A DNA stretch of 49,804 nt, from the sequence record DRR723986_6629, one strand, 5' to 3'. The notes below the pieces were generated by a model. That model ran no database searches. It was given only the letters and a program-made list of their open reading frames with translations, and was not told where the DNA came from. This document shows positions 10,878 to 25,657 of the stretch, one piece after another. Numbering within the stretch: the stretch's first letter is position 1; each line of letters begins with the position of its first letter. The position numbers and the translations under genes were made by a program.

Positions 10878-10930
10878 TTGACTAATATTCTGCGGTATTT
10901 TAACTTGCTAGACACAAACAAGCATGTTTC
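10878..10930 (+). promoter_or_regulatory. Sigma70-like promoter (TTGACT-N16-TTAACT) overlapped by palindromic operator A, ACTTGCT-N11-AGCATGT
   Basis: 10903-10930 matches 19024-19051 at 26 of 28 nt; both copies follow TTGACT at the same distance. Confidence 0.75.
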
Positions 10931-11566: not shown

Positions 11567-13828
11567 ATGAAAAAGACAAGCTTGAGCACCGCACTGGCTG
11601 TCGCCACCGCTTCTCTCGCTACAACCATGACCCCACTGGCTACCGCTCAATCGGAAGTCGGCGCGCTGGAAGAGATCGTGGTAACCGCACGTAAACGCAA
11701 GGAGGATCTGCAGGATGTCGGACTATCTGTCAGCGCTATGTCTGGCACTGAGATCGATCGCACGTTCGCCAGAGACATCAGGGACCTTGCCTTCATCTCG
11801 CCGAACCTGATTATCGACGATACCTCGCAGGGCCCGGGGGGCAATGCAGCCATGTATATCCGTGGCATCGGCGTCGCCGACGTAGAAAAGAACTTTGAAC
11901 CTGCAGTAGGCGTCACTATTGACGGGCTGTTCATCGGCGCCAACAGTGGCGCGATCCTCAGGAGCATCGACCTCGCCTCAGTGGAAGTATTGCGTGGCCC
12001 ACAGGGCACGCTGTTCGGTCGTAACACTATCGGGGGCACGATCAATGTCGAAAGAAGCAGGCCTACCGGAGAACTGGGCGGCAAAGTCCGTGCTGGTTAC
12101 GGCGATTATGATCATTACTGGCTTGACGGTATCCTGAACTTCGGCATTACCGATGATCTGGCAGTAAAGCTCAGCGCTGCAAAAAACAATCAGCGCGATG
12201 GCTACTTCAAGAACGTCAGTAACGGCAATGATGATGGTGCTGTAGATTACGAGTCCTACGGCATCAACTTGCTGTGGAATGCAACCGACACCCTGGAGTT
12301 TGAGTACACCTACCAGGATGAGGAAACGGTTCAGGATACGCCCCCACTGGTCAGCATGTCGCAGCCGGGCAGCAGCCTCAGCTGTGACGTCTACAACCTG
12401 TGCGCCAAATCTTTGACTACACCAAGTTCAGGCGACCGCTACAAAGTAACCACCCTGAGTTTTGAACCCACTACAGCGTCTCTGTCCCCGCCCCCTACCA
12501 GCATTGTGACATCGGCAATCGCTGATTTGATCCCAAACAATGATGACGCCACCTTTGATGCCGAAACCCATATCTTTGAAACACGCTGGGAAATCAGCGA
12601 CAGCCTGTCGCTGAACTACATCTACGGCACCTATGAAACACAGGAAACAGTCGTCACCAACTTCTCATCAGAGCCGATCATGCTGTTTGGCACGGATCGT
12701 CCTGCAGAATATGAGCAATTGAGTCATGAACTGAGATTTACCTATGATGCCGGCGGCCCACTAAAGCTTGTTGCGGGCGCCTACTACTGGGAGTCTGAGT
12801 ACGACATCCGCCTGCGCAGCTGGATTACGTTTGCCGTGCCCGATACCGTGTTGGACATCCCGCAAACGACGCACCAGGAAACAGATTCCCAGGCGATCTT
12901 TTTCGAAGGCGATTACGCGCTGACGGATGCCCTGACCCTGACCCTGGGGGGCCGCTACACCGAAGACGAGAAGCTGTCTGAGCAGCGCGGAAACCTGTCG
13001 ACAGGACCAAACGACCCCAAGGCGGATTGGTCCGAGTTCACACCTAAAGTGGGTATGCGCTATCGGCTGAATGACGATGCCATGGTCTATGCCACTTATG
13101 CCAAGGGTTATCGCAGCGGCGGCTTCAATGGCCGGGTTGATTCGCAACCCAGCGCCCGGATCCCTTATGACCCGGAGACTGTTGATAACTACGAACTCGG
13201 CTTCAAAACCGAATGGATGGACCAGCGAGTACGATTGAACGGTGCCGTGTTCTACATGGACTACCAGGACAAGCAGGAAGAAATTGGACTTGTGTCTGAT
13301 GGTGCCACCGGCCAGCGGATTTCGGTTTTCAACGCGGCTGATGCAACCATGCAGGGCGTGGAGCTTGAGTTACAGGCGATCGTCACCGAAGGTCTGAGCA
13401 TGCGAGCAAACCTTGGCTATCTTGATTCAGAGTACGACGAGTTTACCTATGACTCTGGCTTTGGCATCGTTGATAACAGCGGATTGGAATTCCGCCGGGC
13501 ACCCGAGTTTACGGGATCCGTAGATGCGACCTACGAGTGGCAGATGGGTGGTGGCGATGCCTGGGTAAGGGGTTCATACCGCTTCCTGGGTGAGCACTTT
13601 ATCGAACAGGCAAACCGTCCGGAGCTGTCGAATGATGATCAGCACCTGGTCGACATGTCGGTGAACTACGCTACCAATGGCCTCACCTTCAGCGTTTTCG
13701 GACGTAACCTGACTGAGGAAGACGGTTGGGCGCACGGCCTGTTCGTCTCCGGTCTGTTTACCTACGCATCGGCACGCGCGCCTCGTACCTGGGGTGTTGA
13801 AGTCACCTATGATTTTGGAGCCGAGTGA
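11567..13828 (+). CDS. TonB-dependent receptor 1
   Basis: Signal peptide, TonB box LEEIVVTARKR, plug motif VEVLRGPQGTLFGRNTIGG, GYRSGGFN, C-terminal PRTWGVEVTYDF; GGAGG RBS. Confidence 0.95.
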   Translation: MKKTSLSTALAVATASLATTMTPLATAQSEVGALEEIVVTARKRKEDLQDVGLSVSAMSGTEIDRTFARDIRDLAFISPNLIIDDTSQGPGGNAAMYIRGIGVADVEKNFEPAVGVTIDGLFIGANSGAILRSIDLASVEVLRGPQGTLFGRNTIGGTINVERSRPTGELGGKVRAGYGDYDHYWLDGILNFGITDDLAVKLSAAKNNQRDGYFKNVSNGNDDGAVDYESYGINLLWNATDTLEFEYTYQDEETVQDTPPLVSMSQPGSSLSCDVYNLCAKSLTTPSSGDRYKVTTLSFEPTTASLSPPPTSIVTSAIADLIPNNDDATFDAETHIFETRWEISDSLSLNYIYGTYETQETVVTNFSSEPIMLFGTDRPAEYEQLSHELRFTYDAGGPLKLVAGAYYWESEYDIRLRSWITFAVPDTVLDIPQTTHQETDSQAIFFEGDYALTDALTLTLGGRYTEDEKLSEQRGNLSTGPNDPKADWSEFTPKVGMRYRLNDDAMVYATYAKGYRSGGFNGRVDSQPSARIPYDPETVDNYELGFKTEWMDQRVRLNGAVFYMDYQDKQEEIGLVSDGATGQRISVFNAADATMQGVELELQAIVTEGLSMRANLGYLDSEYDEFTYDSGFGIVDNSGLEFRRAPEFTGSVDATYEWQMGGGDAWVRGSYRFLGEHFIEQANRPELSNDDQHLVDMSVNYATNGLTFSVFGRNLTEEDGWAHGLFVSGLFTYASARAPRTWGVEVTYDFGAE

Positions 13829-13911: not shown

Positions 13912-14487
13912 GTGAGCAAAGATCAACTAGCGCAATTACTAGACAAACAGGCCATATCAGAGGTTGTCATAACCTACGCCAGGGCCATAGATAGAATGGA
14001 TGAGCCGCTCCTACGCAGCGTGTTCCATCCCCACTCAACCCACAACCATTTCTACCAGGGCCCCTCTTCCGACCCCGGTCGGGCAGCAACCGAGAGCGAC
14101 CCGGGTGATTTCGTACGTTTTGCTTTCCAGGTGCTATCGGGCCATGTGCGCACACACCACCAGCTGGGCAACATCCTTGTTGAATTAGAAAGCGACACCA
14201 TTGCGCGGGTGGAGACTTACTTCACCGCACACCATCGCCAGCGTGCACTCGGCGATCCCCTGGCAGCCGATAACGCATTTGAAACCGAGATGGACTTCTT
14301 TGTCGGCGGACGCTATCTCGATCGCTTCGAGCTGGTTGCGGGTGAGTGGAAAATCGCACACCGTACCGGCATGACCGACTGGATGCGCATCGATGCACCG
14401 AGTTCCTTCGGCACTGCCGGCATTGATCAGGACACCGTGGGCAAACGCACGCCCGACGACTTCCTATACAAACTGAGTAGCATCTGA
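13912..14487 (+). CDS. NTF2/SnoaL-like family protein
   Basis: LLDKQAI..V..TYARAIDR, THHQLGN and GGRYLDRF...GEWKIAHR motifs; GAGG RBS with GTG start. Confidence 0.88.
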   Translation: MSKDQLAQLLDKQAISEVVITYARAIDRMDEPLLRSVFHPHSTHNHFYQGPSSDPGRAATESDPGDFVRFAFQVLSGHVRTHHQLGNILVELESDTIARVETYFTAHHRQRALGDPLAADNAFETEMDFFVGGRYLDRFELVAGEWKIAHRTGMTDWMRIDAPSSFGTAGIDQDTVGKRTPDDFLYKLSSI

Positions 14488-14521: not shown

Positions 14522-15358
14522 ATGGGAGACAGACTCGCAAACAAGGTCGCAGTGATCACCGGCGGTGCCAGTGGTATCGGCGCAGAAACCGCAGAAAAAT
14601 TTGTGCAACATGGCGCAAAGGTAGTTCTGGGCGACATTCAGGATGGTCCCGGCGAAGCCTTTGCCGCAAAGCTAGGCGACGGCGCTCGCTTTCGTCACTG
14701 CGACGTGACCAAAGAGTCGGACGTCGAGGCGCTGGTCAATACCGCCATCGAGGAGTTCGGCCAGATCGACATCATGTTCAATAACGCGGGCATCGTCGGT
14801 GCCATCGGCCCTCTGGATTCAACGCCCGCGGAAGAATGGAAGTTCACCCTGGACATTCTGCTCAACGGCGTGTTCTACGGCATGAAACACGCATCAAAGC
14901 ACATGAAAAAGGCCGGCTCCGGTTCGATTATCAGCATGTCCAGTGTCGCCGGGGTCACCGGTGGACTGGGGCCGCACGCCTATGCTGCAGCCAAGCACGC
15001 GGTGGTGGGCCTGACCCGCAATCTGGCGGCTGAAGTAGGCGCCTACGGGGTACGCGTGAACTGCATCGCACCCTACAGTGTGGCAACACCAATGGTGGCC
15101 CAGGCCTATCTCAGCGACCACACCGACGTTGAGGGCACCCTGAAAATGCTGACCGATGAGTCACCGTTGCGCGGCCGCCCCGGGCTCGCCGATGACGTGG
15201 CCAATGCCGTTCTTTGGTTGGCCAGTGACGAGTCTGGCTACACCAGCGGTCATACCCTGACTATCGATGCGGGCATCACTACCGGCTCGGTAGCCGGCCC
15301 CCCACGCTTCTCCGAGCATGTGCCCATGCAGCGTGAGGCTGGCAAGACCGGCATGTAA
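14522..15358 (+). CDS. Classical SDR oxidoreductase, secoisolariciresinol/xanthoxin dehydrogenase-like
   Basis: TGGASGIG, NNAG, catalytic YAAAK within GLGPHAYAAAKHAVVGLT, RVNCIAPYSVATPM. Confidence 0.9.
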   Translation: MGDRLANKVAVITGGASGIGAETAEKFVQHGAKVVLGDIQDGPGEAFAAKLGDGARFRHCDVTKESDVEALVNTAIEEFGQIDIMFNNAGIVGAIGPLDSTPAEEWKFTLDILLNGVFYGMKHASKHMKKAGSGSIISMSSVAGVTGGLGPHAYAAAKHAVVGLTRNLAAEVGAYGVRVNCIAPYSVATPMVAQAYLSDHTDVEGTLKMLTDESPLRGRPGLADDVANAVLWLASDESGYTSGHTLTIDAGITTGSVAGPPRFSEHVPMQREAGKTGM

Positions 15359-15400: not shown

Positions 15401-15838
15401 ATGGGCCAGGATATAGACGAGCAGGCGATCCTGCAGTTGATGGTTGATTACTGCGACAGTGTCGATCGCGGCGATCTTGATGCCTTCGCGGGACTGTTTG
15501 CCGCGGGCGCATGGGGTATTGCCGGTGATCTCGCCCACGGAAGTGAGGCGGTAAGAGCCGTACTCGACAATGTGACGCTTTATGACGGGATACCAAACAC
15601 CCGCCACCTGATGTCCAATGTGCTGATCACAGTAGAGTCGGATGGGATAACGGCCAACGCAAGCAGTTGCATCACGGTCATGCAGTGCATCCCTGATGAC
15701 TTCCCACTGCAGGCAATTTTCATCGGCACCTATCACGACCGCCTGCGCAAGCGCGACAATGAGTGGTTTTTCGAAGAGCGTCTTATTGTGCCTAACCTGG
15801 TCGGCGATATGTCACGTCATCGCGGAGACATGGCCTAG
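15401..15838 (+). CDS. NTF2/SnoaL-like family protein
   Basis: DYCDSVDRGD, YDGIPNTRHLMSN and GTYHDR....EWFFEER motifs. Confidence 0.85.
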   Translation: MGQDIDEQAILQLMVDYCDSVDRGDLDAFAGLFAAGAWGIAGDLAHGSEAVRAVLDNVTLYDGIPNTRHLMSNVLITVESDGITANASSCITVMQCIPDDFPLQAIFIGTYHDRLRKRDNEWFFEERLIVPNLVGDMSRHRGDMA

Positions 15839-15929: not shown

Positions 15930-17558
15930 CTAACCTGCCAGGCGCGAGAATTCCAACTCCGGGTAACCCTCGTTGGCTGATTCGTCCAACCTGTCGTAGT
16001 ACACGTTGGCACCGCCAAAGTAGATCAGCACGCGTGGTCGCTTGGTCTCAAGGTTTGCTCCCATCATCCAGGAATTCACCTTGTCGCCCTCCGCCATCAG
16101 GGTCGCGTTGTGCACTTCCGCCACGTGCGCGGTCCACTCGGCCTCGGCTTCCGGTTTCGGCGTGCAGACGTCGTAACCTTCGCGCTCCATGGTACTGATG
16201 CAGTTGGCGATCCACATCGCATTCTGCTCGATGGAGGTGGGCAGGTTGGCGAATGGCGCCTGCGGTCCGGTAATGATGAACATGTTGGGGAAGTCCGCCA
16301 CGCAGACGCCCATGATGGAGCTGGAGGTCTCGCGCCACTTCTCAGCCAGGCTCTGGCCACTGACACCACGAATCGGGAAGGCTTCCAGGGCACCAGTGTA
16401 GGCACTGAAGCCGGTCGCCAGCACAATGATGTCGAAGTCGTAGCTGTTCTCCGTGGTCCGGACACCGGTCTCGGTGATTTCGACGATCGGCTCCTTGTCC
16501 TTGATATCGATCAGGTGCACATCGTCGCGATCGAAACACTCGAGATAGCCGTGGTCCAGCGGCGGACGCTTGGCAAACAGCGGGTAGTCACCCAGCTTGG
16601 GCACCAGGATATCCGCGACTTCCGGATTCTTGATGCGCTCGCGCATCTTCCTGAGGATGAACTCCGAGGCCATATCGTTCGCTTCCTGGCTGCCCAGCAA
16701 GTCCTCGAAGGTCTCGAATACCCAGCGGAAGCTGCCGGTCCACTTCTCCTCGAAGATGCGCTCGCGCTCCTCCGGGGGTGTGTCCACGGCCATGCGGCCC
16801 TCAGCGGTGTCAAAGGCCATTCCAAACATGTGGTTGCGGCACTTGGCGACAATCTCGTCGTAATTTTCCTTGATTTCCTTTTCCCATTCCTCGGTCATCG
16901 GCGCCTGCATTGCCGGCAGGATGAAGTTCGGTGTGCGATGGAATACGGTGACGCTCTCGGCCTTTCCGCACATGGCGGGAACCATCTGCACGGTGGTGGC
17001 GCCGGCGCCGATGATCCCGATACGCTTACCCTCCCACTCAAGCCCTTCAGGCCAGCGGGAGGAGTGGAACAACGGACCCTTGAAGGTATCCATGCCCTTG
17101 ATTTTCGGGATGACCGGCTCGGAGATCATCCCCATGCCGCTGATAAAGTACTTACAGGTGAAGGTTTCCCCCTCACCGGTGGTGACCAGCCACTGACCGC
17201 TGTCCTTCTGGTAATCGGCGCTGACGATCTCGGTGTTGAGCTGGATGTCACGCCACATGTCGCACTTGTCGACCACGAAACGCATGTAATCCTGGGTCTC
17301 TTTCCAGTCCGGGTAACGCCGGGTCCACTTCCACTCCTGCAGCAATTCCTTGGAGAAGGTCAGGCAGTAGTAATAGCTCTCGCTATCCGTCATGGCGCCC
17401 GGGTAACGGTTCCAGGTCCAGGTACCGCCGACGTCGCTCGCCTTGTCGAACACCCTGATGGATTGGCCCGCCTCGCGGAGATAGTGGATCAATGCTATGC
17501 CGGCAAAGCCGGCGCCGATGACGATGGTATCGAAGTCTGGTTTTTGCTGAGACGCCAT
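15930..17558 (-). CDS. Type I Baeyer-Villiger monooxygenase 2
   Basis: GAGFAG, GGTWTWNRYPGA, fingerprint FKGPLFHSSRWP, GAGATT, KRP, ATGF. Confidence 0.95.
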   Translation of the reverse strand: MASQQKPDFDTIVIGAGFAGIALIHYLREAGQSIRVFDKASDVGGTWTWNRYPGAMTDSESYYYCLTFSKELLQEWKWTRRYPDWKETQDYMRFVVDKCDMWRDIQLNTEIVSADYQKDSGQWLVTTGEGETFTCKYFISGMGMISEPVIPKIKGMDTFKGPLFHSSRWPEGLEWEGKRIGIIGAGATTVQMVPAMCGKAESVTVFHRTPNFILPAMQAPMTEEWEKEIKENYDEIVAKCRNHMFGMAFDTAEGRMAVDTPPEERERIFEEKWTGSFRWVFETFEDLLGSQEANDMASEFILRKMRERIKNPEVADILVPKLGDYPLFAKRPPLDHGYLECFDRDDVHLIDIKDKEPIVEITETGVRTTENSYDFDIIVLATGFSAYTGALEAFPIRGVSGQSLAEKWRETSSSIMGVCVADFPNMFIITGPQAPFANLPTSIEQNAMWIANCISTMEREGYDVCTPKPEAEAEWTAHVAEVHNATLMAEGDKVNSWMMGANLETKRPRVLIYFGGANVYYDRLDESANEGYPELEFSRLAG

Positions 17559-17617
17559 GAACGTTCTCCTTGTCTTATATCGTTATCAATAGAGCCTATC
17601 CGGTTTCCTGCCTGGCC

Positions 17618-18913
17618 TTAACCCTCGAGGTAATGGCCGTATTTTTTCATCGCCTGCTCGCGCAGGGTCGGCGAGTGGTAGGTCGGGAAGAGGCCCGGTG
17701 CCGCCTCGTAGTCACGCAATACCGTGCGTGCAACCGTAACCTTATGCACTTCCGATGGTCCGTCAACAACACCCAGCTCGGGGATATCGGCCCACATATA
17801 CATCAGCGGGATCTCATCCGACATACCCAGGCTGCCGTGCAGGTGCATGGCGCGATATACGACTTCCTGCAATACCTTCGGGGTAGCCGCCTTGATCGCC
17901 GCGATCTCCTTGCGCACCTCCCGGTTGTATTCCTTGTGCTTATCGATCAACCACGCTGTATATAGCACATGCAGGCGGTACTGCAGTATCTGGGTGTAGC
18001 TGTCCGCAATCTTGTCCTGGGTAAGCTGCTTATTGGCCAGCAATTCACCCTTGGTGGTCCGGCTCAGCACCCGCTCACACATCATGTCCATGGCTTTCTT
18101 TAGCTTGCCCACGCTGCGCATGGCGTGGTGTACCCTGCCGCCGCCAAGCCGCGTCTGCGCCACCAGGAAGCCCTTGCCTTCTTCTCCGAGGAGATTTTCC
18201 GCCGGCACCCGGCAGTTGGTAAAGCGGATATAACCGTGCACGCCATCGCCCTGTTCGACATAGGGGCCGACAGCGGAGTTGCGCAGAATCTCCATGCCCG
18301 GCGTGCCCTTCTCCACCAGCACGATGGAGGCGCCTTCATGGATTGGACGATCGGGATTGGTGACGACCATCACCAGCAGGAACTCGGAGAACCGGGCGTG
18401 AGAGGCGAACCACTTCTCGCCGTTGATCACCCATTCATCGCCATCGCGGGTCGCCGTACAGGTGAACTCGGCGGGATCGGCACCGGCCTGGGGCTCGGTC
18501 ATCGAATAGCAGGAGGCAATCTTGCCGTCCAACAGCGGCTGCAGGTATTTCTCTTTCTGCTCCGGTGTACCGAAGTGCGCGAGAATCTCGGCATTGCCTG
18601 AGTCCGGCGCCTGGCAACCGAAGACGCTGGGACCAAAGCGGCTGCGCCCCAGGATCTCATTCATCAGGCCGAGTTTAACCTGGCCGTAGCCCTCACCACC
18701 CAGTTCCGGTCCGATGTGGCAGGCCCAGAGGCGCTTCTGCTTGACGATTTCCCTCAGCGGGGCCATCGCCTTTGCGGCAGGGGAATCAGGATCCCAGGGG
18801 TCACCTGGGCCGCGAAATACCAGGTCGAGCGGCTCGATCTCCTCGCGGGTGAATTCCTCGATCCAGTTGAGTTGCTCCTGGAATTCAGGATCGGTCTCAA
18901 AGCTCCAGCTCAC
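17618..18913 (-). CDS. Acyl-CoA dehydrogenase, ACAD10/ACAD11/LvaC-like subfamily
   Basis: CQAPDSGNAEIL, SMTEPQAGADP, INGEKW, RLGGGRVHHAMR and DGPSEVH motifs. Confidence 0.9.
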   Translation of the reverse strand: MSWSFETDPEFQEQLNWIEEFTREEIEPLDLVFRGPGDPWDPDSPAAKAMAPLREIVKQKRLWACHIGPELGGEGYGQVKLGLMNEILGRSRFGPSVFGCQAPDSGNAEILAHFGTPEQKEKYLQPLLDGKIASCYSMTEPQAGADPAEFTCTATRDGDEWVINGEKWFASHARFSEFLLVMVVTNPDRPIHEGASIVLVEKGTPGMEILRNSAVGPYVEQGDGVHGYIRFTNCRVPAENLLGEEGKGFLVAQTRLGGGRVHHAMRSVGKLKKAMDMMCERVLSRTTKGELLANKQLTQDKIADSYTQILQYRLHVLYTAWLIDKHKEYNREVRKEIAAIKAATPKVLQEVVYRAMHLHGSLGMSDEIPLMYMWADIPELGVVDGPSEVHKVTVARTVLRDYEAAPGLFPTYHSPTLREQAMKKYGHYLEG

Positions 18914-18998
18914 GGCGACACCTCAAATTGTCTTGGCCTGTAATGATAGCGGAATCTGCCCCGCCACCCAGGCGAAGCGTCCAACCCGACCTTATTTG

Positions 18999-19051
18999 TT
19001 GACTTGCGGGCCCCGCATCTTATACTTGCTAGACGCAAACAAGCAAGTTTC
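18999..19051. promoter_or_regulatory. Divergent promoter region: TTGACT-N16-TATACT overlapped by operator A, ACTTGCT-N11-AGCAAGT
   Basis: Perfect 7-bp inverted repeat at 19024-19048; near-identical copy at 10903-10927. Confidence 0.8.
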
Positions 19052-19069
19052 CAGGCGGACAAAAATAAG

Positions 19070-19801
19070 ATGACAGCACAAAAAGTCTGGCTCGTCACAG
19101 GTGCCTCCCGGGGCATCGGCCTGGCCACCGCTGAGCGGGCCATTGCCGCTGGTGACAAGGTCGCCCTGCTCGCCCGGGGCGACGTGGTACAGGAACTGGC
19201 TGCCGGCCTGGGAGCGGATGCGCTTGCCCTGCAGGCAGACGTCAGCGACCCCGCGCAAGTGCAGGCCGCCGTGGCCCGCCTGCAGGACCAATGGGGCAAG
19301 GTAGACCGCATCGTCAATAACGCCGGTTACCATCGCGGCGGCAAGATCGGCAAACTCAGCAGCACTGACTGGCAGGCCGTGCTCGACGTCAACCTGAGCG
19401 GTGCCCTGAACGTGATCACTGCCTGCAACGAGCTGATCAGCGACGATGGCGCCATTGTCAATGTCGGCGCCGTGGTGGGCTTTCGCGGCTTCCCCGGCGA
19501 CGCCGCCTACGCGGCATCAAAATCCGGCCTTGCCGGCCTTACCCGGGCCCTGGCGATCGAGTTCGCAGCCCGCGGCATCACCGTCAATCTCGTGATACCC
19601 GGCCTGGTGCTCACGGACATGACCGAGGGACTCTCCCCCAAGGCGCTTGAGTCCATGCGCCGCAAGATTCCGCTGCAACGCTACGGCGAACCGGCGGAAA
19701 TCGCCGACGTGATCCTGTGGGTCGCCGGGTCGCGCTACATGACCGGTGCCTTCATCCCCACCGACGGTGGCCTGATGTCCAGCTTCGGCATTGCGGGCTG
19801 A
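19070..19801 (+). CDS. SDR oxidoreductase (FabG/LvaD-like)
   Basis: TGASRGIG, NNAG, YAASK, IPLQRYGEPAEIA. Confidence 0.9.
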   Translation: MTAQKVWLVTGASRGIGLATAERAIAAGDKVALLARGDVVQELAAGLGADALALQADVSDPAQVQAAVARLQDQWGKVDRIVNNAGYHRGGKIGKLSSTDWQAVLDVNLSGALNVITACNELISDDGAIVNVGAVVGFRGFPGDAAYAASKSGLAGLTRALAIEFAARGITVNLVIPGLVLTDMTEGLSPKALESMRRKIPLQRYGEPAEIADVILWVAGSRYMTGAFIPTDGGLMSSFGIAG

Positions 19802-19802
19802 T

Positions 19803-20819
19803 ATGACAGCAGCTGACAATGCCCTGGCCCGCTGGTGCGAAACCCACCTGGGGTTGACCGGCGCGCGTATCGAACGCGAACTGAGTGGGGGTAATTCCAA
19901 CCTCACCCAACTGGTATTCACCGATCAGCGCCCCCTGGTAATGCGCAGCCCGCCGGCCAACACCATCTCACCGAAGGCCCATAAGGGCGTGGAGCGCGAA
20001 TACACGGTGATGCGCGCCCTGCACGGGCATGTACCGGTCCCGGAAGCCGTGGCCTGGTGCGACGACGCCAGCATCACCGGCCAGCCCTTCGCGCTCGTCG
20101 AACATATCGCCGGCGTGTCGATCAGCGACGAATTGCCCGCCGGGTATGACGGCGTTACCGCGATCAATGCCCTCGGCGAGCAGCTCAGCGACGCCCTGGC
20201 GGCCCTCGCCACCGCTCCCTGGCAGGCGCTTGGCCTCAGCAACTTCGGCAACCCGGACAATTTCCTGCTGCGCCAGATCGACCGCTGGCTCGCGGTGCGC
20301 GCTGACAGCAGCGTCAGGGACCTGCCGCAGATCGTCGAACTGGGCAACTGGCTCAGGAACAATCTGCCGGAGGACGCGCCGGTCGGTGTGGTACACGGCG
20401 ACTTTCATCTCGACAATACCCTGTGCCACCCCGAGCGCCCTGAGCTGCTGGCGGTGATCGACTGGGAAATGGCCAGTATCGGCGATCCACTGACCGACCT
20501 GGGGTTGTTCCTGATGTTCTGGGGCAATCAACGCAGCGCCAACCCGCCGGGCTTTGCGCATGTGCAGGCGGTGACGCGTTGCGCCGGGGTTGTCGACCGG
20601 CGCAGTCTGGCGCAACGCTGGGCACGCGCCAGCGGCCTTTCCATAGAGAAGCTCGACTTCTACCTGTGCTTCGCCTTCTGGCGCCTGGCGGCAATCGTCG
20701 AAGGTGCCTACGGGCTGTATGTGAACGGCAAGGTGGACACCCCCTATGCCCGGGGACTGGAGTACGACGTACCCGCCTTACTGGACGAAGCCGCGCGGGC
20801 GGCACAGGGAGACTGGTAA
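19803..20819 (+). CDS. APH-family phosphotransferase (ACAD10/11 kinase domain or LvaA-like)
   Basis: GGNSNLT, REYTVMRAL, HGDFHLDN and VIDWEMASIGDPLTDLG motifs. Confidence 0.9.
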   Translation: MTAADNALARWCETHLGLTGARIERELSGGNSNLTQLVFTDQRPLVMRSPPANTISPKAHKGVEREYTVMRALHGHVPVPEAVAWCDDASITGQPFALVEHIAGVSISDELPAGYDGVTAINALGEQLSDALAALATAPWQALGLSNFGNPDNFLLRQIDRWLAVRADSSVRDLPQIVELGNWLRNNLPEDAPVGVVHGDFHLDNTLCHPERPELLAVIDWEMASIGDPLTDLGLFLMFWGNQRSANPPGFAHVQAVTRCAGVVDRRSLAQRWARASGLSIEKLDFYLCFAFWRLAAIVEGAYGLYVNGKVDTPYARGLEYDVPALLDEAARAAQGDW

Positions 20820-22432
20820 TGCAGGCGACGATGATGCACACGCCGATGACCGTGCAGCTTATCCTGCAGCACGGCCAGGCGGTGTTCCCGAACAGCCGGG
20901 TGGGCACTTTTGACGGCGAATCGATCAGCTACAAACGCTACGAGGACATTGCGGCGGACGCGACCCGCCTCGCCGCTGCGCTGGACGAACTGGGCATCCG
21001 CCCCGGTGAGCGCGTGGCCACCTTCAGCTGGAACAACACCGCCCACATGGAGGCCTACCTGGCCATTCCCTCCATGGGCGCGATCATGCACACCGTCAAC
21101 ATCCGCCTGTCGCCGGAGCATATTGCCTACATCATCAACCATGCCGAAGACCGCGCCGTGCTGCTCGACGCCAGCCTGGTGGAACTGTTCGAACCCGTGC
21201 TGCCGCTGCTGGAAACCGTCGAACATATCGTGGTCATCGGCGACAGCGCCCACTTCGACGGGTTCACCTGTCACAACTACGAGGCGCTGCTGGACGCGCA
21301 GGCCCCTGAGTTCGACTGGCCGGAGCTGGATGAAACCCAGGCGGCGGCGATCTGCTACACCTCGGGTACGACCGGCAATCCAAAAGGCGTGGTATACAGT
21401 CACCGAACGACCTTTGTGCATTCCCTGGCATCCCGGGCCAGCGATACTTTCGGGATCAGCGAACACGATCGCATCCTGCTGTTGCCCTCCATGTTTCACG
21501 CCAACGCCTGGGGCCTGCCCTACAGCGGCTGGTTCAGCGGCAGCGACTTCATCATGCCCGGCCCGCACCTGCAGCTGCCGGGCATCGAAGCCATGGTCAG
21601 CCAGGCGCGACCAACCATCACCGCGATGGTACCCACCATCCTCGGGGACCTGCTGCGGGCTCCACCGGAGCGGGAGCTGGATATGCGTTGCTTCCGGATG
21701 CTGGTCTGCGGCGGATCTGCGGTAGCGCCGGCAATGATCGATGCCGCTCGCGAACAATGGGGAGTACCGGTACTGCAGGGTTGGGGTATGACCGAGACCA
21801 GCCCCCTGTGTGCGCTGTCGCACCCGCCCCGTGACCCCGGTCCCGGCGGCGAGACGCCCTGGCGCGCCAAGAGCGGACGGCCGGTCGCTGGCGTGCAGGT
21901 ACGGGTGGTTGACGATAAGGGCGAGCCGCTGGCGCACGATGGCCAGACGGTGGGCGAACTGCAGTTGCGCGGCCCCTGGATCACCGGTGGCTATCATCGC
22001 GGCGAATCGCCGGATTCGGTCACCGCTGACGGCTGGCTGAGAACCGGGGACGTGGGGCATATCGACGAACGTCACTACGTCACCCTGACCGACCGCACCA
22101 AGGACGTTATCAAGTCCGGCGGCGAATGGATCTCCTCGGTCGACCTGGAGAACATCCTGCTGGGCCATCCGGGCGTGCTCGAGGTAGCGGTGATCGCCAC
22201 CGCTGATGAACGCTGGCAGGAACGTCCTCTGGCCGTCGTGGTGACCCGCGATGCCAGCGTGGACGCAGCGGCACTGCGGGCCTACCTGAGCGGGAAAGTG
22301 GCCAGGTTCTGGATTCCCGAGTACTGGGCCTTCACCGACGAGATTGCCAAGACCAGCGTCGGCAAGCTGGACAAGAAACAGCTGCGCGCCGCCAACGAGA
22401 ACGGCGCACTGCCAATCCAGGAGGTTCGATGA
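20819..22432 (+). CDS. Fatty acyl-CoA ligase (AlkK/DmdB-like subfamily)
   Basis: YTSGTTGNPKG, GWGMTET, GWLRTGD, DRTKDVIKSGGEWISS, SVGKLDK; TAATG overlap with the upstream gene. Confidence 0.92.
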   Translation: MQATMMHTPMTVQLILQHGQAVFPNSRVGTFDGESISYKRYEDIAADATRLAAALDELGIRPGERVATFSWNNTAHMEAYLAIPSMGAIMHTVNIRLSPEHIAYIINHAEDRAVLLDASLVELFEPVLPLLETVEHIVVIGDSAHFDGFTCHNYEALLDAQAPEFDWPELDETQAAAICYTSGTTGNPKGVVYSHRTTFVHSLASRASDTFGISEHDRILLLPSMFHANAWGLPYSGWFSGSDFIMPGPHLQLPGIEAMVSQARPTITAMVPTILGDLLRAPPERELDMRCFRMLVCGGSAVAPAMIDAAREQWGVPVLQGWGMTETSPLCALSHPPRDPGPGGETPWRAKSGRPVAGVQVRVVDDKGEPLAHDGQTVGELQLRGPWITGGYHRGESPDSVTADGWLRTGDVGHIDERHYVTLTDRTKDVIKSGGEWISSVDLENILLGHPGVLEVAVIATADERWQERPLAVVVTRDASVDAAALRAYLSGKVARFWIPEYWAFTDEIAKTSVGKLDKKQLRAANENGALPIQEVR

Positions 22433-22436
22433 CAGC

Positions 22437-23084
22437 ATGAGCGAAAGCAGCGGAGATAACGCAGTGCTGGGCAAAATGACCCAGGCGGAGCGCACCGCGC
22501 TCTCGGATCAGCGCATGTTCCAGGCGGCGGTGACACTGATCAATGAGCGAGGCACGCAGAAGACAACGCTCAAGGACATCGGCGAGATGGCAGGCTACAG
22601 CCGCGGCCTGGCCAACTACCGCTTCGGCTCCAAGGACGGCTTTCTGCAGGAACTGTTTCACCAGTTCGACGGCCGCTGGAAGAACCATCTGGACAGCTAT
22701 ATTAAAGGCGAGTCTGGTATTGCCGCGGTACTGGCGGCGGCTAACGCCCTGCGTGATTTCCTGCAGAACGAGTCAGAGTATATGCGCGCCATGTATATCC
22801 TCTGGTACGAATCCCTGGGGCACGAGTCGGATATCCGTAACAGCCTGGCCGAACACCACCGGGTTTATCGCAAGGACGCCACCCGTTGGATCTCCCAGGG
22901 TATCGAAGACGGCGAGATAGACCCGGCCATCGATGCGGCGCAGTTTGCAGTGCAGTATTGCGCCTTTATTTTCGGCATCGTTTACCAGTGGCTGGTAAAC
23001 GCAGCCGCGCTCGACCTCGACGCGGTATTCAACGAATACGAAAAGAACATCCTGAAATTACTGAGCAAAAAGGAGTCCGCCTAA
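22437..23084 (+). CDS. TetR/AcrR family regulator (TetR-A)
   Basis: TQAERT...TTLKDIGEMAGYSRGLANYRFGSKDG helix-turn-helix. Confidence 0.93.
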   Translation: MSESSGDNAVLGKMTQAERTALSDQRMFQAAVTLINERGTQKTTLKDIGEMAGYSRGLANYRFGSKDGFLQELFHQFDGRWKNHLDSYIKGESGIAAVLAAANALRDFLQNESEYMRAMYILWYESLGHESDIRNSLAEHHRVYRKDATRWISQGIEDGEIDPAIDAAQFAVQYCAFIFGIVYQWLVNAAALDLDAVFNEYEKNILKLLSKKESA

Positions 23085-23890
23085 TGGCCTATCTCGATAC
23101 CGGTAACGGCAAGAACATCTACTACGAAGATTACGGCAGCGGCGACAGCGCCATTGTCCTGGTCCACGGCTGGGGCATGGGCCTGCGCATGTGGGACTAC
23201 AACCTCCCCGCGCTGATCCAGGCCGGCCACCGGGTAGTCGCGATCGACCATCGGGGCTGCGGACGCTCGGACAAGGACTTCGACGACTTCGGCATCGAAG
23301 CCATCGCCGGCGACGTGGTAGCGCTGGTGGGCAAGCTTGGCCTGAAGCACGTCGTGCTCAATGGCTGGTCACTGGGCGGTGCGGTGGTGGTTGCCGCAGC
23401 GGCACAGCTTGGCAGTACCTGCAGCGGCCTGTTTCTCACCTGTGCAGCGACGCCGGCTTATCTGCAGAAGCCGGACTTTCCGCACGGCGGTACGGATGAG
23501 GCTATGGCCGAGACCCTGGCCGCACTGACCGCTGACCGGGTAAATTTTCTCGCCGCCCTGTCGCAAGGTGTCTGCGCGGAAGGCACATCGGCGGACGTCA
23601 TCAGCTGGATGTGGCGCTGCTTCATGGAGGCCACTCCGATGGCGGCCCAGGGCCTGGCAGAGCTCGGCCCCCTGGACCAGCGCGATATGCTGGCCAGCCT
23701 TGGAATGCCAATCGTCAGCGCGGTGGGCGCACTGGACCAGGTGGTCGATCCCAACGTCTGCCGCTCGGTAAAGGATTACAATGCCGCGGCAACGATTATC
23801 GAGTTCGAGGCTTCCGGGCACGCCCCGCAAGTTGAGGAAGCCGCCCGCTATAACAGCGAATTGCTGGCATTCTGCAGCAATTGCCTCTAA
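23084..23890 (+). CDS. Alpha/beta hydrolase (esterase/lactonase-like)
   Basis: LVHGWG, DHRGCGRS, nucleophile GWSLGG, acid residue in LDQVV, His in SGHAP; TAATG coupling to TetR-A. Confidence 0.9.
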   Translation: MAYLDTGNGKNIYYEDYGSGDSAIVLVHGWGMGLRMWDYNLPALIQAGHRVVAIDHRGCGRSDKDFDDFGIEAIAGDVVALVGKLGLKHVVLNGWSLGGAVVVAAAAQLGSTCSGLFLTCAATPAYLQKPDFPHGGTDEAMAETLAALTADRVNFLAALSQGVCAEGTSADVISWMWRCFMEATPMAAQGLAELGPLDQRDMLASLGMPIVSAVGALDQVVDPNVCRSVKDYNAAATIIEFEASGHAPQVEEAARYNSELLAFCSNCL

Positions 23891-23907: not shown

Positions 23908-24909
23908 ATGGCATCGCGCATCAACTACGGCCTGTGGTACGACTTCAGAAATCCGCTGGCCTGGCACCAGCCCAATGAGACCTTCTACGCCGAGCGCCTG
24001 CAGCAGATTGCCGACGCAGAGGAACTGGGTTTCTCGAGCTGCTGGCTGACCGAGCATCATTTTTGCGAGGACGGCTATACCCCATCGCCGCTGGTGATCG
24101 CCGCGGCGATCGGCGCGCGCACCAAGCGCATGCAGCTGGGTACCAACCTGATGCTGCTGCCGCTGCACGACCCGATCCGGGTAGCCGAGGATGCCGCCAC
24201 CCTGTCGCTGACGACTGGCGGCCGCTTCGACCTCGGCGTGGGCATCGGTTATCGGCAGTTGGAGTTCGATCAGTTCGGCCGCAAGATTTCCCACCGGCCC
24301 AGCCTGATCGAGGAAGGCATCGAGATCGTGCGCCGCGCCTGGTCTGGCGAGCCGGTCAATTTTTCCGGCAAGCGCTTCGAGGTAGGTGAGCTGTGCGTTA
24401 CCCCGACGCCGGACAAGCCTCCGGCCATCCTGCTGGGTGGCATGGTGCCACCCGCCATCGAGCGCGCAGCTCGCATCGCGGACGGCTTCCTGTGCACCGG
24501 CGGCATCGGATTGGATGTGTATGCAGAAGCGCTGGAAAAACAGGGTAAATCTGCCAGCGACGGATCGGTGGTGCTGGGTTGCTGGGCAATCATTGCCGAG
24601 GACCCGGAGGCAGAGGCGGCGCGCATCGGCGACCACGTGCTCTACCAGATCAACGAGTACATCAAATGGGGCGCGTTCGGCCCACCGGACCAGACACCCC
24701 TGTTTGAGGACTACAAGAGCGCGATTGAGAACGGGTTGTACGAGATGTGGGATGCCGACACGGCGGTGACCGAGCTGACCAAGCTCATTACTGCCTACCC
24801 CAATATCCGCGACATTCACTTCTGGGCCCAGTTCCCGGGTGAGAGCGTTGAGTCCGGCAACCGCCGCCTCGACTACATCGCGCGGGAAGTTCTGCCCCGG
24901 CTGCCCTGA
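23908..24909 (+). CDS. LLM-class (luciferase-like) flavin-dependent oxidoreductase
   Basis: WLTEHHFCEDGYTPSP, LHDPIRVAEDAA and GRFDLGVGIGYR motifs. Confidence 0.9.
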   Translation: MASRINYGLWYDFRNPLAWHQPNETFYAERLQQIADAEELGFSSCWLTEHHFCEDGYTPSPLVIAAAIGARTKRMQLGTNLMLLPLHDPIRVAEDAATLSLTTGGRFDLGVGIGYRQLEFDQFGRKISHRPSLIEEGIEIVRRAWSGEPVNFSGKRFEVGELCVTPTPDKPPAILLGGMVPPAIERAARIADGFLCTGGIGLDVYAEALEKQGKSASDGSVVLGCWAIIAEDPEAEAARIGDHVLYQINEYIKWGAFGPPDQTPLFEDYKSAIENGLYEMWDADTAVTELTKLITAYPNIRDIHFWAQFPGESVESGNRRLDYIAREVLPRLP

Positions 24910-25627: not shown

Positions 25628-25657
25628 CCAGCCAAACTTTAATAAAAGGATCGACCC

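What the first reader, a model, noticed from the sequence alone, without database searches (positions are those of the whole stretch)
15930..23890. BVMO and lactonase coupled to a split ACAD10/11 (Lva-like) phospho-acyl-CoA module
Seen: an ACAD with APDSGN, GGRVHHAMR and DGPSEVH motifs, an APH kinase, an SDR and a CoA ligase flank one operator, together with a BVMO and an alpha/beta hydrolase. Established: P. putida LvaA/C/D/E and mammalian ACAD10/11 convert 4-oxo/4-hydroxyacyl-CoA via 4-phosphoacyl-CoA to beta-oxidation intermediates. Inference: ketone to lactone or ester (BVMO), to hydroxy acid (hydrolase), to CoA ester, to phospho-acyl-CoA, to enoyl-CoA. I know no described case of this chemistry joined to a BVMO ring-opening route. 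No small LvaB-like gene was seen.
Basis: partly seen in the sequence, partly recalled or inferred. Interest (0 to 1): 0.76.

Follow-up and report, generated by a model that had tools for sequence, protein, structure and literature searches.

The report
Ketone-oxygenase and hydroxy-acid genes under one repressor
Marine bacteria of the Halieaceae family keep a ketone-oxidising enzyme, an esterase and a bacterial version of the mammalian ACAD10/11 hydroxy-fatty-acid pathway under one shared DNA switch, which suggests an undescribed route for breaking down oxygenated lipids or isoprenoids.

Summary
All the genes named are at the stated coordinates, and the ACAD and kinase are of the ACAD10/11 / LvaC-LvaA type. 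The four residues that set mouse ACAD11 apart are present and invariant in 81 of 81 relatives.

The new result is a conserved 23-bp operator, ACTTGCTAGACGCAAACAAGCAA.
- It sits over the -10 box between ACAD and the SDR-kinase-ligase-TetR-hydrolase-LLM operon.
- A second copy lies upstream of a SnoaL-TonB receptor-SnoaL-SDR-SnoaL operon.
- In relatives where the BVMO has moved away from the ACAD, it has its own operator copy 101-240 bp upstream, in 13 of 13 loci.
- Scans of five whole genomes found 12 sites, all at these units.
- In 81 Halieaceae genomes, ACAD and BVMO orthologs occur together in 30, alone in 3, and neither in 48.

So the BVMO and hydrolase belong to one small regulon with the Lva-like module. 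The chemical order of steps and the substrate remain inference. Ordinary BVMO lactones give 5- or 6-hydroxy acids, so beta-oxidation rounds or a parallel 4-oxo route must be assumed. No paper I could search describes this combination. I rate it a new variant of a known kind, interest 0.6.

The parts
10903..10925 (+). Second copy of the 23-bp operator (2 mismatches), about 95 bp upstream of the first SnoaL gene
   Evidence: 2 matches in the window at up to 3 mismatches, 0 in 100 shuffles. Orthologous copies lie upstream of SnoaL-TonB receptor operons in other genomes.
11020..11505 (+). SnoaL_4 (NTF2-like) protein, first gene of the receptor operon; no signal peptide seen
   Evidence: Pfam PF13577, E 4e-25. 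Sequence. Orthologs at 62-68% identity lie directly downstream of operator copies in G002, G023 and G043.
11567..13828 (+). TonB-dependent outer-membrane receptor
   Evidence: Pfam Plug + TonB_dep_Rec_b-barrel. Present at 43% identity or more in 14 of 33 close loci.
13912..14487 (+). SnoaL_4 protein
   Evidence: Pfam PF13577.
14522..15358 (+). SDR1, short-chain dehydrogenase (candidate secondary-alcohol/ketone oxidoreductase)
   Evidence: Pfam adh_short_C2, E 4e-63. No NCBIfam equivalog reached its cut-off.
15401..15838 (+). SnoaL_4 protein
   Evidence: Pfam PF13577.
15930..17558 (-). Type I Baeyer-Villiger monooxygenase, CHMO/PAMO-like
   Evidence: 470 bits to Thermocrispum municipale CHMO 5m0z, 412 to PAMO, 381 to STMO, 365 to OTEMO. 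Type I motifs present. Lies 59 nt downstream of the ACAD on the same strand.
17618..18913 (-). ACAD10/11 / LvaC / FadE2-type acyl-CoA dehydrogenase-fold enzyme (predicted 4-phosphoacyl-CoA phosphate-eliminating enzyme)
   Evidence: 251 bits to 4hr3 and 240 to mouse ACAD11 8v3u, against 153 or less for ordinary ACADs. R255, H263, R266 and D384 align with ACAD11 R626, H634, R637 and D753. These residues are invariant in 81 of 81 sequences.
18999..19026 (+). Sigma-70-like promoter (TTGACT, 16 nt, TATACT) for the SDR2 operon
   Evidence: 10 of 12 matches. The -10 box overlaps the operator.
19024..19046 (.). 23-bp operator ACTTGCTAGACGCAAACAAGCAA (arms TTGCT/AGCAA, 11-nt spacer) in the divergent ACAD/SDR2 region
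   Evidence: There are 54 instances in 1.45 Mb of loci plus window and 0 in the reversed control. It lies next to the ACAD in 23 of 33 close loci and 0 of 47 distant loci.
19070..19801 (+). SDR2, in the LvaD position (candidate 4-oxoacyl-CoA reductase / 4-hydroxyacyl-CoA dehydrogenase)
   Evidence: Pfam adh_short_C2, E 8e-58. Present in 29 of 33 close loci, always next to the kinase.
19791..20819 (+). APH-fold kinase of the ACAD10/11 N-domain type (predicted 4-hydroxyacyl-CoA kinase)
   Evidence: 180 bits to 9o56, 175 to 3dxp, 125-129 to the mouse ACAD11 kinase domain. HGD204-N209 and D224-W-E motifs present.
20816..22432 (+). Acyl-CoA ligase (LvaE position), fatty-acid/medium-chain type
   Evidence: NCBIfam PRK06187 subfamily, 600 bits against a cut-off of 476. 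412 bits to T. thermophilus long-chain fatty acyl-CoA synthetase 1ult.
22500..23084 (+). TetR-family repressor (start codon not fixed; ORF opens at 22344), presumed binder of the operator
   Evidence: Pfam TetR_N + TetR_C. Encoded inside the operon in 20 of 33 close loci.
23084..23890 (+). Alpha/beta hydrolase of the aryl-esterase / non-haem haloperoxidase group (candidate ester or lactone hydrolase)
   Evidence: Pfam Abhydrolase_1. 107-111 bits to bromoperoxidase 3fob and the arylesterase chains led by 3hea/1va4. GWSLG nucleophile motif. Present in 27 of 33 close loci.
23908..24909 (+). Luciferase-like flavin monooxygenase/oxidoreductase, role unknown
   Evidence: Pfam Bac_luciferase, E 3e-54. 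Only weak solved relatives, 97 bits or less. Present in 18 of 33 close loci. Forms ABH-LLM-BVMO operons in L022 and L132.

Best explanation
This is a small, dedicated TetR-controlled regulon. It consists of three or four transcription units that share one 23-bp operator.

Units:
1. SnoaL-TonB receptor-SnoaL-SDR1-SnoaL, for uptake and first redox steps.
2. ACAD-BVMO.
3. SDR2-kinase-CoA ligase-TetR-hydrolase-LLM.

Proposed working, with the status of each step:
- A ketone- or secondary-alcohol-bearing aliphatic compound, most likely derived from lipid or isoprenoid, is taken up through the receptor (inferred).
- SDR1 sets the ketone (inferred).
- The CHMO-like BVMO inserts oxygen next to the ketone. 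The enzyme class is shown; the substrate is unknown.
- The aryl-esterase-type hydrolase opens the ester or lactone (inferred from family).
- The ligase makes the CoA ester. The family is shown.
- General beta-oxidation shortens the chain until an oxo or hydroxy group lies at C4 (inferred).
- SDR2 interconverts 4-oxo and 4-hydroxy, as LvaD does (inferred by position).
- The ACAD10/11-type kinase phosphorylates the 4-hydroxyl, and the ACAD10/11-type flavoenzyme eliminates phosphate to give 2-enoyl-CoA. This is inferred from family signature residues, and the activity has been shown for P. putida, B. pseudomallei and mammalian relatives.

The inducer presumably releases TetR from the operator, which overlaps the -10 box.

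Three points remain open:
- whether the BVMO/esterase and the kinase/ACAD act in series on one carbon skeleton, or in parallel on two kinds of oxo-group in one substrate class;
- the roles of the LLM and the SnoaL proteins;
- the identity of the substrate.
For: Family assignment:
- The ACAD scores 240-251 bits to ACAD11 and FadE2-type structures, against 153 or less for ordinary ACADs.
- ACAD11's R626, H634, R637 and catalytic D753 align with R255, H263, R266 and D384. These are invariant in 81 of 81 sequences.
- The kinase's best solved relatives are 9o56, 3dxp and the ACAD11 kinase domain.
- Split bacterial orthologs from B. pseudomallei replaced the ACAD10 domains in vitro.

Regulon:
- The operator is conserved in 15 of 17 aligned ACAD/SDR2 spacers.
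- The window holds 2 copies where 0 are expected.
- There are 54 instances in 1.45 Mb against 0 in the reversed control.
- The operator overlaps a 10-of-12 sigma-70 promoter.
- It lies next to the ACAD in 23 of 33 close loci and 0 of 47 distant ones.

BVMO membership:
- In the window the BVMO is 59 nt downstream of the ACAD, with no terminator-like site between them.
- In 13 of 13 loci where a BVMO ortholog of 76% identity or more is not beside the ACAD, an operator lies 101-240 bp upstream of its start. Three paralogs have none, 0 of 3.
- Genome-wide scans of 5 genomes (about 20.4 Mb) found 12 sites. All lie directly upstream of ACAD, SDR2-kinase, SnoaL-receptor or BVMO. The control found 0.

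Co-occurrence:
- In the same 81 Halieaceae genomes, the ACAD ortholog (82% identity or more) is in 31 and the BVMO ortholog (67% or more) in 32. Both are in 30, ACAD alone in 1, BVMO alone in 2, neither in 48.
- All 10 genomes whose ACAD locus lacked a complete BVMO match nevertheless hold an ortholog elsewhere.

Other families:
- Steroidobacteraceae L022 has ACAD-SnoaL-ABH-LLM-BVMO in one direction.
- L132 has ABH-LLM-BVMO and L131 has SnoaL-ABH-BVMO.

The hydrolase is kept in 27 of 33 close loci.
Against: - No biochemical or expression data exist for any of these genes, and no RNA data set was available.
- Repressor-operator binding is inferred from sequence conservation only.
- The chemistry does not connect directly. 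BVMO lactones of 5- or 6-membered ring ketones open to 5- or 6-hydroxy acids, and methyl-ketone esters give primary alcohols. A 4-hydroxyacyl-CoA arises only after further steps that the regulon does not encode.
- The BVMO lies within the 10 kb fetched on either side in only 11 of 33 close loci.
- Two BVMO orthologs of 65-67% identity (L084, L085) have no operator within 1.5 kb. Nor do the two BVMOs that lie convergent to the ACAD (L111, L114).
- One ACAD genome lacks a detected BVMO, and two BVMO genomes lack a detected ACAD.
- Co-occurrence within one family is inflated by shared descent.
- In Pseudohaliea rubra an SDR and a PQQ dehydrogenase sit where the window has the BVMO.
- The HYDxK lysine, which the preprint reports as essential in the C. 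thermarum kinase, is His here.
- That preprint shows alkylglycerol kinase activity for this kinase family.
- The LLM and five SnoaL proteins are unexplained.
Confidence: 0.5

Rival explanations
1. One regulon and one substrate class, but two parallel branches rather than a series. The substrates would be products of oxidative isoprenoid or lipid breakdown that carry methyl-ketone or gamma-oxo groups, such as isoprenoid methyl ketones and levulinate-like 4-oxo acids. The BVMO plus esterase would remove terminal or mid-chain ketones as esters. Ligase, SDR2, kinase and ACAD would deal with 4-oxo/4-hydroxy-acyl-CoA ends, exactly as in the P. putida levulinate pathway.
For: The gene set SDR-kinase-ligase plus ACAD mirrors LvaD-LvaA-LvaE-LvaC, which starts from a 4-oxo acid without any BVMO. 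BVMO products do not directly give 4-hydroxy acids (general chemistry, inference). The BVMO is often a separate transcription unit with its own operator.
Against: No substrate evidence at all. In Steroidobacteraceae and in the window the BVMO is co-transcribed with ACAD or ABH, which fits a series equally well. The isoprenoid-ketone idea rests on recalled chemistry, not on any call.
Confidence: 0.27
2. The kinase does not act on acyl-CoA. It phosphorylates a free lipid alcohol such as a 1-O-alkylglycerol, as lately reported for ACAD10-type kinase domains, including prokaryotic ones. The regulon would then serve ether-lipid, wax-type or related lipid turnover, with the ACAD acting on another substrate.
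For: The preprint 10.1101/2025.09.10.675409 (abstract and sections 6 and 12 read) reports that several prokaryotic ACAD10-kinase homologs phosphorylated chimyl alcohol, some needing acetyl-CoA. The window kinase's best solved relative is 9o56. I take 9o56 to be that study's C. thermarum structure, but the entry title does not say so.
Against: The kinase is always paired with an ACAD that keeps the phosphate-binding Arg/His/Arg set and catalytic Asp, and with a CoA ligase. This pairing fits a phospho-acyl-CoA intermediate. The preprint itself leaves the relation between the two activities open. A BVMO has no obvious role in ether-lipid cleavage.
Confidence: 0.1
3. The BVMO and hydrolase are merely neighbours of an ordinary 4-hydroxy-acid salvage module and share no function with it.
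For: The BVMO is absent from the 10 kb fetched on either side in 22 of 33 close loci. APH-ACAD pairs without any BVMO are common: 11 of 47 distant loci have an adjacent APH and none has a BVMO ortholog.
Against: The operator follows the BVMO when it is unlinked, in 13 of 13 loci. All 12 genome-wide sites lie at these units. Co-occurrence is 30 both, 3 single, 48 neither. ABH-LLM-BVMO operons occur in other families.
Confidence: 0.04
4. The regulon senses and destroys a lactone-type signalling molecule rather than serving growth on a carbon source.
For: TetR1 gives a weak match to the ScbR autoregulator-receptor model (39 bits, cut-off 150). The regulon includes a hydrolase of an esterase/lactonase-capable family.
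Against: The match is far below the cut-off. A TonB receptor, a CoA ligase and a complete feed into beta-oxidation point to catabolism for carbon. Nothing else in the calls supports signalling.
Confidence: 0.04

Closest known systems
Pseudomonas putida levulinate (lva) operon, lvaABCDE
   Same: Both have a kinase (LvaA-like APH), an ACAD-fold phosphate-eliminating enzyme (LvaC-like), an SDR in the LvaD position and an acyl-CoA ligase in the LvaE position. The expected chemistry is the same: 4-oxo/4-hydroxyacyl-CoA to 4-phosphoacyl-CoA to enoyl-CoA.
   Different: There is no 12-kDa LvaB. The repressor is TetR-type instead of LvaR. The ACAD is transcribed divergently. The regulon adds a type I BVMO, an esterase-type hydrolase, an LLM, a TonB receptor, three SnoaL proteins and a second SDR. 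Per, LvaA is only 29% identical to the ACAD10/11 kinase domains, and other bacterial kinases are closer. No direct sequence comparison with the P. putida proteins could be made here.
Mammalian ACAD10/ACAD11 and the split Burkholderia pseudomallei orthologs
   Same: Same kinase fold and same ACAD subfamily. The R, H-x-M-R and catalytic Asp residues are conserved. As in B. pseudomallei, the two domains are separate proteins.
   Different: The motif is HAMR instead of HCMR. There is no HAD domain. The genes are embedded in a regulon with oxygenase, hydrolase and uptake genes. The physiological substrate is unknown.
Classical BVMO-plus-hydrolase ketone pathways (cyclohexanone chnB/chnC, methyl-ketone BVMO/esterase pairs, the M. 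tuberculosis mymA operon); recalled, not looked up
   Same: A type I BVMO is paired with an alpha/beta hydrolase, dehydrogenases and, in some cases, an acyl-CoA ligase. The BVMO here is closest to CHMO and PAMO.
   Different: As far as I recall, and as far as my searches show, those pathways carry on through alcohol and aldehyde dehydrogenases to diacids or alcohols. None includes an ACAD10/11-type kinase/ACAD pair.

Membership tests
ACAD10/11 / LvaC (FadE2-like) subfamily of acyl-CoA dehydrogenases | Closer in sequence to ACAD11/FadE2-type proteins than to ordinary ACADs | tested here: met
   251 bits (4hr3) and 237-241 bits (mouse and human ACAD11), against 153 or less for the best ordinary ACAD.
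ACAD10/11 / LvaC (FadE2-like) subfamily of acyl-CoA dehydrogenases | Catalytic aspartate (mouse ACAD11 D753) in place of the usual glutamate | tested here: met
   D384 in DGPSEVH aligns with the ACAD11 LADGPDEVH Asp. Invariant in 81 of 81 sequences.
ACAD10/11 / LvaC (FadE2-like) subfamily of acyl-CoA dehydrogenases | Upstream Arg (R626) plus the H-C-M-R motif (H634, R637) proposed to hold the phosphate | tested here: met
   R255, H263 and R266 align and are invariant in 81 of 81 sequences. The Cys position is Ala in 77 and Gly in 4, so the motif reads HAMR.
ACAD10/11 / LvaC (FadE2-like) subfamily of acyl-CoA dehydrogenases | Converts 4-phosphoacyl-CoA to 2-enoyl-CoA and has no ordinary dehydrogenase activity | not testable with these tools
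   Needs an enzyme assay.
ACAD10/11-type (LvaA-like) APH-fold kinase | APH fold, with the ACAD10/11 kinase domains among the nearest relatives | tested here: met
   PF01636, E 3.5e-43. 9o56 180 bits, 3dxp 175 bits, ACAD11 residues 47-329 at 125-129 bits.
ACAD10/11-type (LvaA-like) APH-fold kinase | Catalytic Asp and Asn, and the metal-binding DWE motif | tested here: met
   H-G-D204-F-H-L-D-N209 and D224-W-E226.
ACAD10/11-type (LvaA-like) APH-fold kinase | Lys of the HYDxK motif (essential in the C. thermarum enzyme) | tested here: not met
   The position is His206 here and Arg in 3dxp (alignment). Its meaning for substrate choice is unknown.
P. putida-type lva operon | Small LvaB partner protein next to the kinase | tested here: not met
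   No unassigned gap larger than about 70 nt between 19070 and 24909. LvaB is also absent from P. citronellolis.
P. putida-type lva operon | Orthology of the SDR and the ligase to LvaD and LvaE | not tested
   Only family level (SDR, AMP-binding) and gene position are shown. No P. putida sequences were available.
Type I Baeyer-Villiger monooxygenase | FAD Rossmann motif, the FxGxxxHxxxW[P/D] fingerprint, the long type I motif, and full-length similarity to characterised BVMOs | tested here: met
   Motifs at residues 15, 159 and 44. 470 bits over residues 1-534 to TmCHMO.
Aryl-esterase / non-haem haloperoxidase group of alpha/beta hydrolases | GxSxG nucleophile elbow and full-length similarity to members of the group | tested here: met
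   GWSLG at residue 95. 107 bits over residues 9-265 to the arylesterase chains led by 3hea/1va4. Lactonase versus esterase activity cannot be tested here.
TetR-operator regulon | Conserved operator at the promoters of all member units, with the repressor encoded in the regulon | tested here: met
   Physical binding and the inducer cannot be tested here.

The most novel reading that the evidence does not exclude
Abundant marine Halieaceae (OM60/NOR5 relatives), together with some Steroidobacteraceae and Sphingomonadales, run a previously undescribed catabolic route. In it, Baeyer-Villiger oxygenation and ester or lactone hydrolysis produce hydroxy acids, whose 4-hydroxyacyl-CoA remnants are cleared by phosphorylation and elimination. 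This would be the first physiological context for bacterial ACAD10/11-type enzymes beyond levulinate. It would also be a handle on how oxygenated lipid or isoprenoid carbon is turned over in the sea.
Probability: 0.35. Interest if true: 0.75.

Novelty: new variant of a known kind. Interest (0 to 1): 0.6.

Why it matters
Bacterial ACAD10/11-like kinase/ACAD pairs are widespread. The genome scan matched more than 590 relatives of this ACAD alone. Their only defined bacterial role so far is levulinate catabolism in Pseudomonas.

This regulon links the pair to a BVMO, an esterase and an outer-membrane receptor. It has a compact, conserved operator and a repressor encoded within the regulon. That makes the natural substrate directly findable, because whatever releases the TetR from the 23-bp site is the inducer. 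Two cultured relatives carry the system.

If the coupling holds, it adds a new downstream branch to Baeyer-Villiger ketone pathways. It would also explain how hydroxy acids that stall beta-oxidation at C4 are handled in common marine heterotrophs.

Tried and rejected
- Earlier findings and the window's own genome were not available.
- The inverted-repeat tool found nothing at a minimum length of 8. The operator arms are only 5-7 bp, and the site was found by alignment instead.
- NCBIfam gave no equivalog above cut-off for any regulon protein. Only the ligase passed a subfamily model.
- The LLM, and by NCBIfam the SnoaL proteins, have no informative relatives.
- The Rand et al. 2017 lva paper is not held. 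I tried to reach P. putida lva genes through the control genomes, but Pseudomonas is not among them.
- Expression: no RNA holder was listed for the 9-kb stretch.
- I considered whether the neighbouring TetR2-controlled cluster (24911-32308: SDR, SnoaL, ligase, MaoC-like, thiolase-like, Rieske) makes this a steroid or terpenoid ring pathway. Its genes are kept in only 2-5 of 33 close loci and it carries no operator copy. I treat it as a separate unit.
- Chance adjacency of the BVMO was considered and rejected.
- In Steroidobacteraceae genomes an operator-like site with 5 mismatches lies 68-151 bp upstream of the BVMO (L128, L130). At that mismatch level I count it only as a hint.
- Structure prediction, complex prediction and the large protein-database searches were not used. 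Family membership was already settled by the solved-structure searches.

Full report
**What is there.** The window is about 60% G+C. Its ACAD gene is 93% identical to that of Pseudohalioglobus sediminis, and the next best relatives are other Halieaceae. The stretch also occurs in marine plankton metagenome runs.

Pfam gives this map:
- SnoaL_4, 11020-11505 (+)
- TonB-dependent receptor, 11567-13828 (+)
- SnoaL_4, 13912-14487 (+)
- SDR1, 14522-15358 (+)
- SnoaL_4, 15401-15838 (+)
- BVMO, 15930-17558 (-)
- ACAD, 17618-18913 (-)
- SDR2, 19070-19801 (+)
- APH kinase, 19791-20819 (+)
- acyl-CoA ligase, about 20816-22432 (+)
- TetR, about 22500-23084 (+)
- alpha/beta hydrolase, about 23084-23890 (+)
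- luciferase-like monooxygenase (LLM), 23908-24909 (+)
- a second, divergent TetR, 24911-25594 (-)

The plus-strand genes from SDR2 to LLM overlap or are separated by less than 70 nt. The BVMO follows the ACAD after 59 nt, and no terminator-like site lies between them.

**Is the ACAD/kinase pair of the ACAD10/11 type?** Yes, by sequence.
- The ACAD scores 251 bits to the FadE2-type structure 4hr3 and 237-241 bits to mouse and human ACAD11. The best ordinary ACAD reaches 153 bits.
- Rashan et al. 2025 (PMC12440821, passages read) name a catalytic Asp (D753), R626 and the HCMR motif (H634, R637) as unique to ACAD10/11 and LvaC. In the alignment these fall on D384, R255, H263 and R266 of the window protein.
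- All four are invariant in the window protein plus 80 relatives, 81 of 81. The Cys of HCMR is Ala in 77 and Gly in 4.
- The kinase's best solved relatives are 9o56 (180 bits), 3dxp (175 bits) and the kinase domain of mouse ACAD11 (125-129 bits). It keeps the catalytic Asp and Asn and the DWE motif.
- Paquay et al. 2024 (PMC11342911, passages read) showed that separate kinase and ACAD proteins of Burkholderia pseudomallei can replace the ACAD10 domains in vitro. A split bacterial form is therefore established biochemistry.
- The SDR and ligase occupy the positions of LvaD (levulinyl-CoA reductase) and LvaE. I could test that only at family level.
- There is no room for a 12-kDa LvaB. P. citronellolis lacks one too.

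**The BVMO and the hydrolase.**
- The BVMO is a canonical type I enzyme. It scores 470 bits over its full length to Thermocrispum municipale cyclohexanone monooxygenase, 412 to PAMO, 381 to steroid monooxygenase and 365 to OTEMO. The FAD Rossmann motif and both type I BVMO fingerprint motifs are present; only one GxGxxG match was found.
- The hydrolase's nearest solved relatives are the bromoperoxidase 3fob (111 bits) and the arylesterase chains led by 3hea/1va4 (107 bits). These belong to the aryl-esterase / non-haem haloperoxidase group. It has a GWSLG nucleophile elbow. Whether it prefers lactones or open esters cannot be told.
- The LLM has only weak relatives, 97 bits or less.

**Conservation of the neighbourhood.** A scan of one genome per species found more than 590 relatives of the ACAD, and I kept 80 loci. 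I ran tblastn of the window's proteins against them. Among the 33 loci with an ACAD of 66% identity or more, many of them short or cut, the counts are:

| Gene | Loci with it (of 33) |
|---|---|
| SDR2 | 29 |
| kinase | 27 |
| hydrolase | 27 |
| ligase | 25 |
| TetR | 20 |
| LLM | 18 |
| TonB receptor | 14 |
| BVMO | 11 |

Among the 47 loci with an ACAD of 57-62% identity, none holds an ortholog of any of these genes. Eleven have a distant APH next to the ACAD. The BVMO/hydrolase association is therefore a property of this ortholog group, not of ACAD10/11-like pairs in general.

The order is rearranged between families. In a Steroidobacteraceae genome (L022) the genes read ligase-kinase-SDR2, then divergently ACAD-SnoaL-hydrolase-LLM-BVMO.

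**The operator.** I aligned the ACAD/SDR2 spacers of 17 loci. They are unalignable except for one block, ACTTGCTAGACGCAAACAAGCAA, present in 15 of 17.
- In the window it lies at 19024-19046. It overlaps the -10 box of a 10-of-12 sigma-70-like promoter that faces SDR2.
- A second copy with 2 mismatches lies at 10903-10925, about 95 bp upstream of the SnoaL-receptor operon. No match was seen in 100 shuffles.
- Across all fetched DNA (1.45 Mb) there are 54 instances at 4 mismatches or fewer, and none in reversed sequences.
- The site lies next to the ACAD in 23 of 33 close loci and in 0 of 47 distant loci.
- Extra copies lie upstream of SnoaL/receptor operons (L004, L012, L022) and about 260 bp upstream of a BVMO that lies 8 kb from the ACAD (L032).

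**Does the BVMO belong?** Three independent tests say yes.

(a) Co-occurrence. In one sample of 81 Halieaceae genomes, the ACAD ortholog (82-93% identity; the next best paralog is 56% or less) is in 31, and the BVMO ortholog (67-86%) is in 32.

| | Genomes (of 81) |
|---|---|
| both | 30 |
| ACAD only (at a contig edge) | 1 |
| BVMO only | 2 |
| neither | 48 |

Of the 30 with both, the two genes are adjacent in 17 and unlinked in 13. Shared descent inflates such a table, but the changing linkage argues against mere hitch-hiking.

(b) The operator travels with the gene. I fetched 13 loci in which a BVMO ortholog of 76% identity or more is not beside the ACAD: 11 of the 13 unlinked genomes plus the 2 BVMO-only genomes. 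In all 13 the operator lies 101-240 bp upstream of the BVMO start. Three BVMO paralogs (30-38% identity) have none.

Exceptions must be stated. Two orthologs of 65-67% identity that lie 10-13 kb from the ACAD (L084, L085) have no site within 1.5 kb. Nor do the two BVMOs that lie convergent to the ACAD (L111, L114).

(c) Genome-wide scans of five genomes (about 20.4 Mb, 3 mismatches or fewer) gave 12 sites, and 0 for the reversed pattern. Every site is directly upstream of ACAD, SDR2-kinase, SnoaL-receptor or BVMO. The regulon is thus small and dedicated, and the BVMO is one of its three or four units.

Beyond Halieaceae, five further genomes whose ACAD locus lacked the BVMO all hold an ortholog (63-80% identity; three of the five only as fragments at contig ends). 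Two of them show hydrolase-LLM-BVMO or SnoaL-hydrolase-BVMO in a row.

**How it most likely works.**

Shown:
- the enzyme families;
- the signature residues;
- the shared operator over a promoter;
- the conserved membership of the regulon.

Inferred:
- A TetR repressor, released by an unknown inducer, controls uptake (receptor) and redox priming (SDR1, SnoaL proteins).
- It also controls oxygen insertion next to a ketone (BVMO), ester or lactone opening (hydrolase) and CoA activation (ligase).
- It also controls the Lva/ACAD10/11 sequence: 4-oxo to 4-hydroxy (SDR2), to 4-phospho (kinase), to 2-enoyl-CoA (ACAD).

The weak point is chemical. A BVMO acting on 5- or 6-membered ring ketones yields 5- or 6-hydroxy acids, and acting on methyl ketones it yields acetate esters of primary alcohols. 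A 4-hydroxyacyl-CoA follows only if general beta-oxidation first shortens a hydroxy acid whose hydroxyl is at an even position (6-hydroxy to 4-hydroxy, for example). The alternative is that the two modules act in parallel on two kinds of oxo-group in one substrate family.

I therefore give 0.5 to the serial or closely coupled pathway and 0.27 to the parallel version. I give 0.1 to a different kinase substrate, because a preprint reports 1-O-alkylglycerol kinase activity for ACAD10-type kinase domains, including prokaryotic ones, and leaves the relation to the 4-hydroxyacyl-CoA activity open. Candidate natural substrates are isoprenoid methyl ketones and levulinate-like 4-oxo acids from oxidative isoprenoid breakdown, keto/hydroxy fatty acids and alkyl-substituted cyclic ketones. 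These are my own suggestions from general chemistry, not from any call.

**Comparison with what is known.** By gene content and residues, the kinase/ACAD/SDR/ligase core works like the P. putida lva system and like ACAD10/11. It differs in several ways:
- it lacks LvaB;
- it is regulated by TetR;
- its ACAD is divergently transcribed;
- it recruits a BVMO, an esterase-type hydrolase, an LLM, a TonB receptor and NTF2-like proteins.

Classical BVMO/hydrolase ketone pathways, which I recall rather than looked up, continue through alcohol and aldehyde dehydrogenases.

**Literature searches.**
- No held paper contains LvaA or LvaC together with 'Baeyer-Villiger'; the hits came from LvaA plus LvaC alone.
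- One genome note contains BVMO + acyl-CoA dehydrogenase + phosphotransferase + gene cluster + esterase, and I saw only its listing.
- The listed papers on 4-phosphoacyl-CoA terms are by title the levulinate and ACAD10/11 work or vitamin B6 studies.
- The one paper that mentions Halieaceae and BVMO discusses BVMOs in another clade.
- One search added nothing.
- The library lacks most subscription journals, so this is absence in what I could search, not proof.

**Verdict.** It is a new variant of a known kind, with interest 0.6.

Noticed in passing
window 24911-37820: A second divergent TetR unit. TetR2 (-) faces SDR, SnoaL_4, AMP-ligase, MaoC-like hotdog, thiolase-like (Thiolase_C_1) and Rieske oxygenase alpha subunit, followed by another TonB receptor, a GST and a PQQ dehydrogenase. 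It looks like a separate lipid or side-chain degradation module. It has no copy of the 23-bp operator, and its genes are kept in only 2-5 of 33 close loci.
   Followed up: partly
window 6138-7727 (-): A second FMO-like flavin monooxygenase (529 aa, Pyr_redox_3/FMO-like), next to a radical-SAM gene at 7776-8858. It lies outside the regulon.
   Followed up: no
L004 11293-14263 (Pseudohaliea rubra): Directly downstream of the ACAD, where the window has the BVMO, this genome has an SDR and a PQQ-dependent dehydrogenase. Its BVMO ortholog sits on another contig with its own operator.
   Followed up: partly
G070:C48:900-2498 (L114): The BVMO ortholog of this small (1.7 Mb) genome carries one in-frame TAG and lies convergent to the ACAD. 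This could be a pseudogene or a sequencing error.
   Followed up: no
G021 (genome of L001) and the Halieaceae sample: The closest genome holds 11 APH-family genes. Several Halieaceae hold a second or third FadE2/ACAD11-like paralog at 45-56% identity. These bacteria thus carry several kinase/ACAD10/11-like systems, of which this regulon is one.
   Followed up: no
G043:C1:644809-644967 (L121/L127): In this genome two operator copies 136 bp apart lie between a divergent SnoaL-receptor unit and the ACAD. SDR2-kinase and the BVMO each have their own copy elsewhere. That makes four separate units.
   Followed up: partly
window 40457-44272 (-): A cluster of DUF3450, two MotA/ExbB-family genes, TonB_C and a TPR protein. 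This is a likely energising system for the window's TonB receptors.
   Followed up: no
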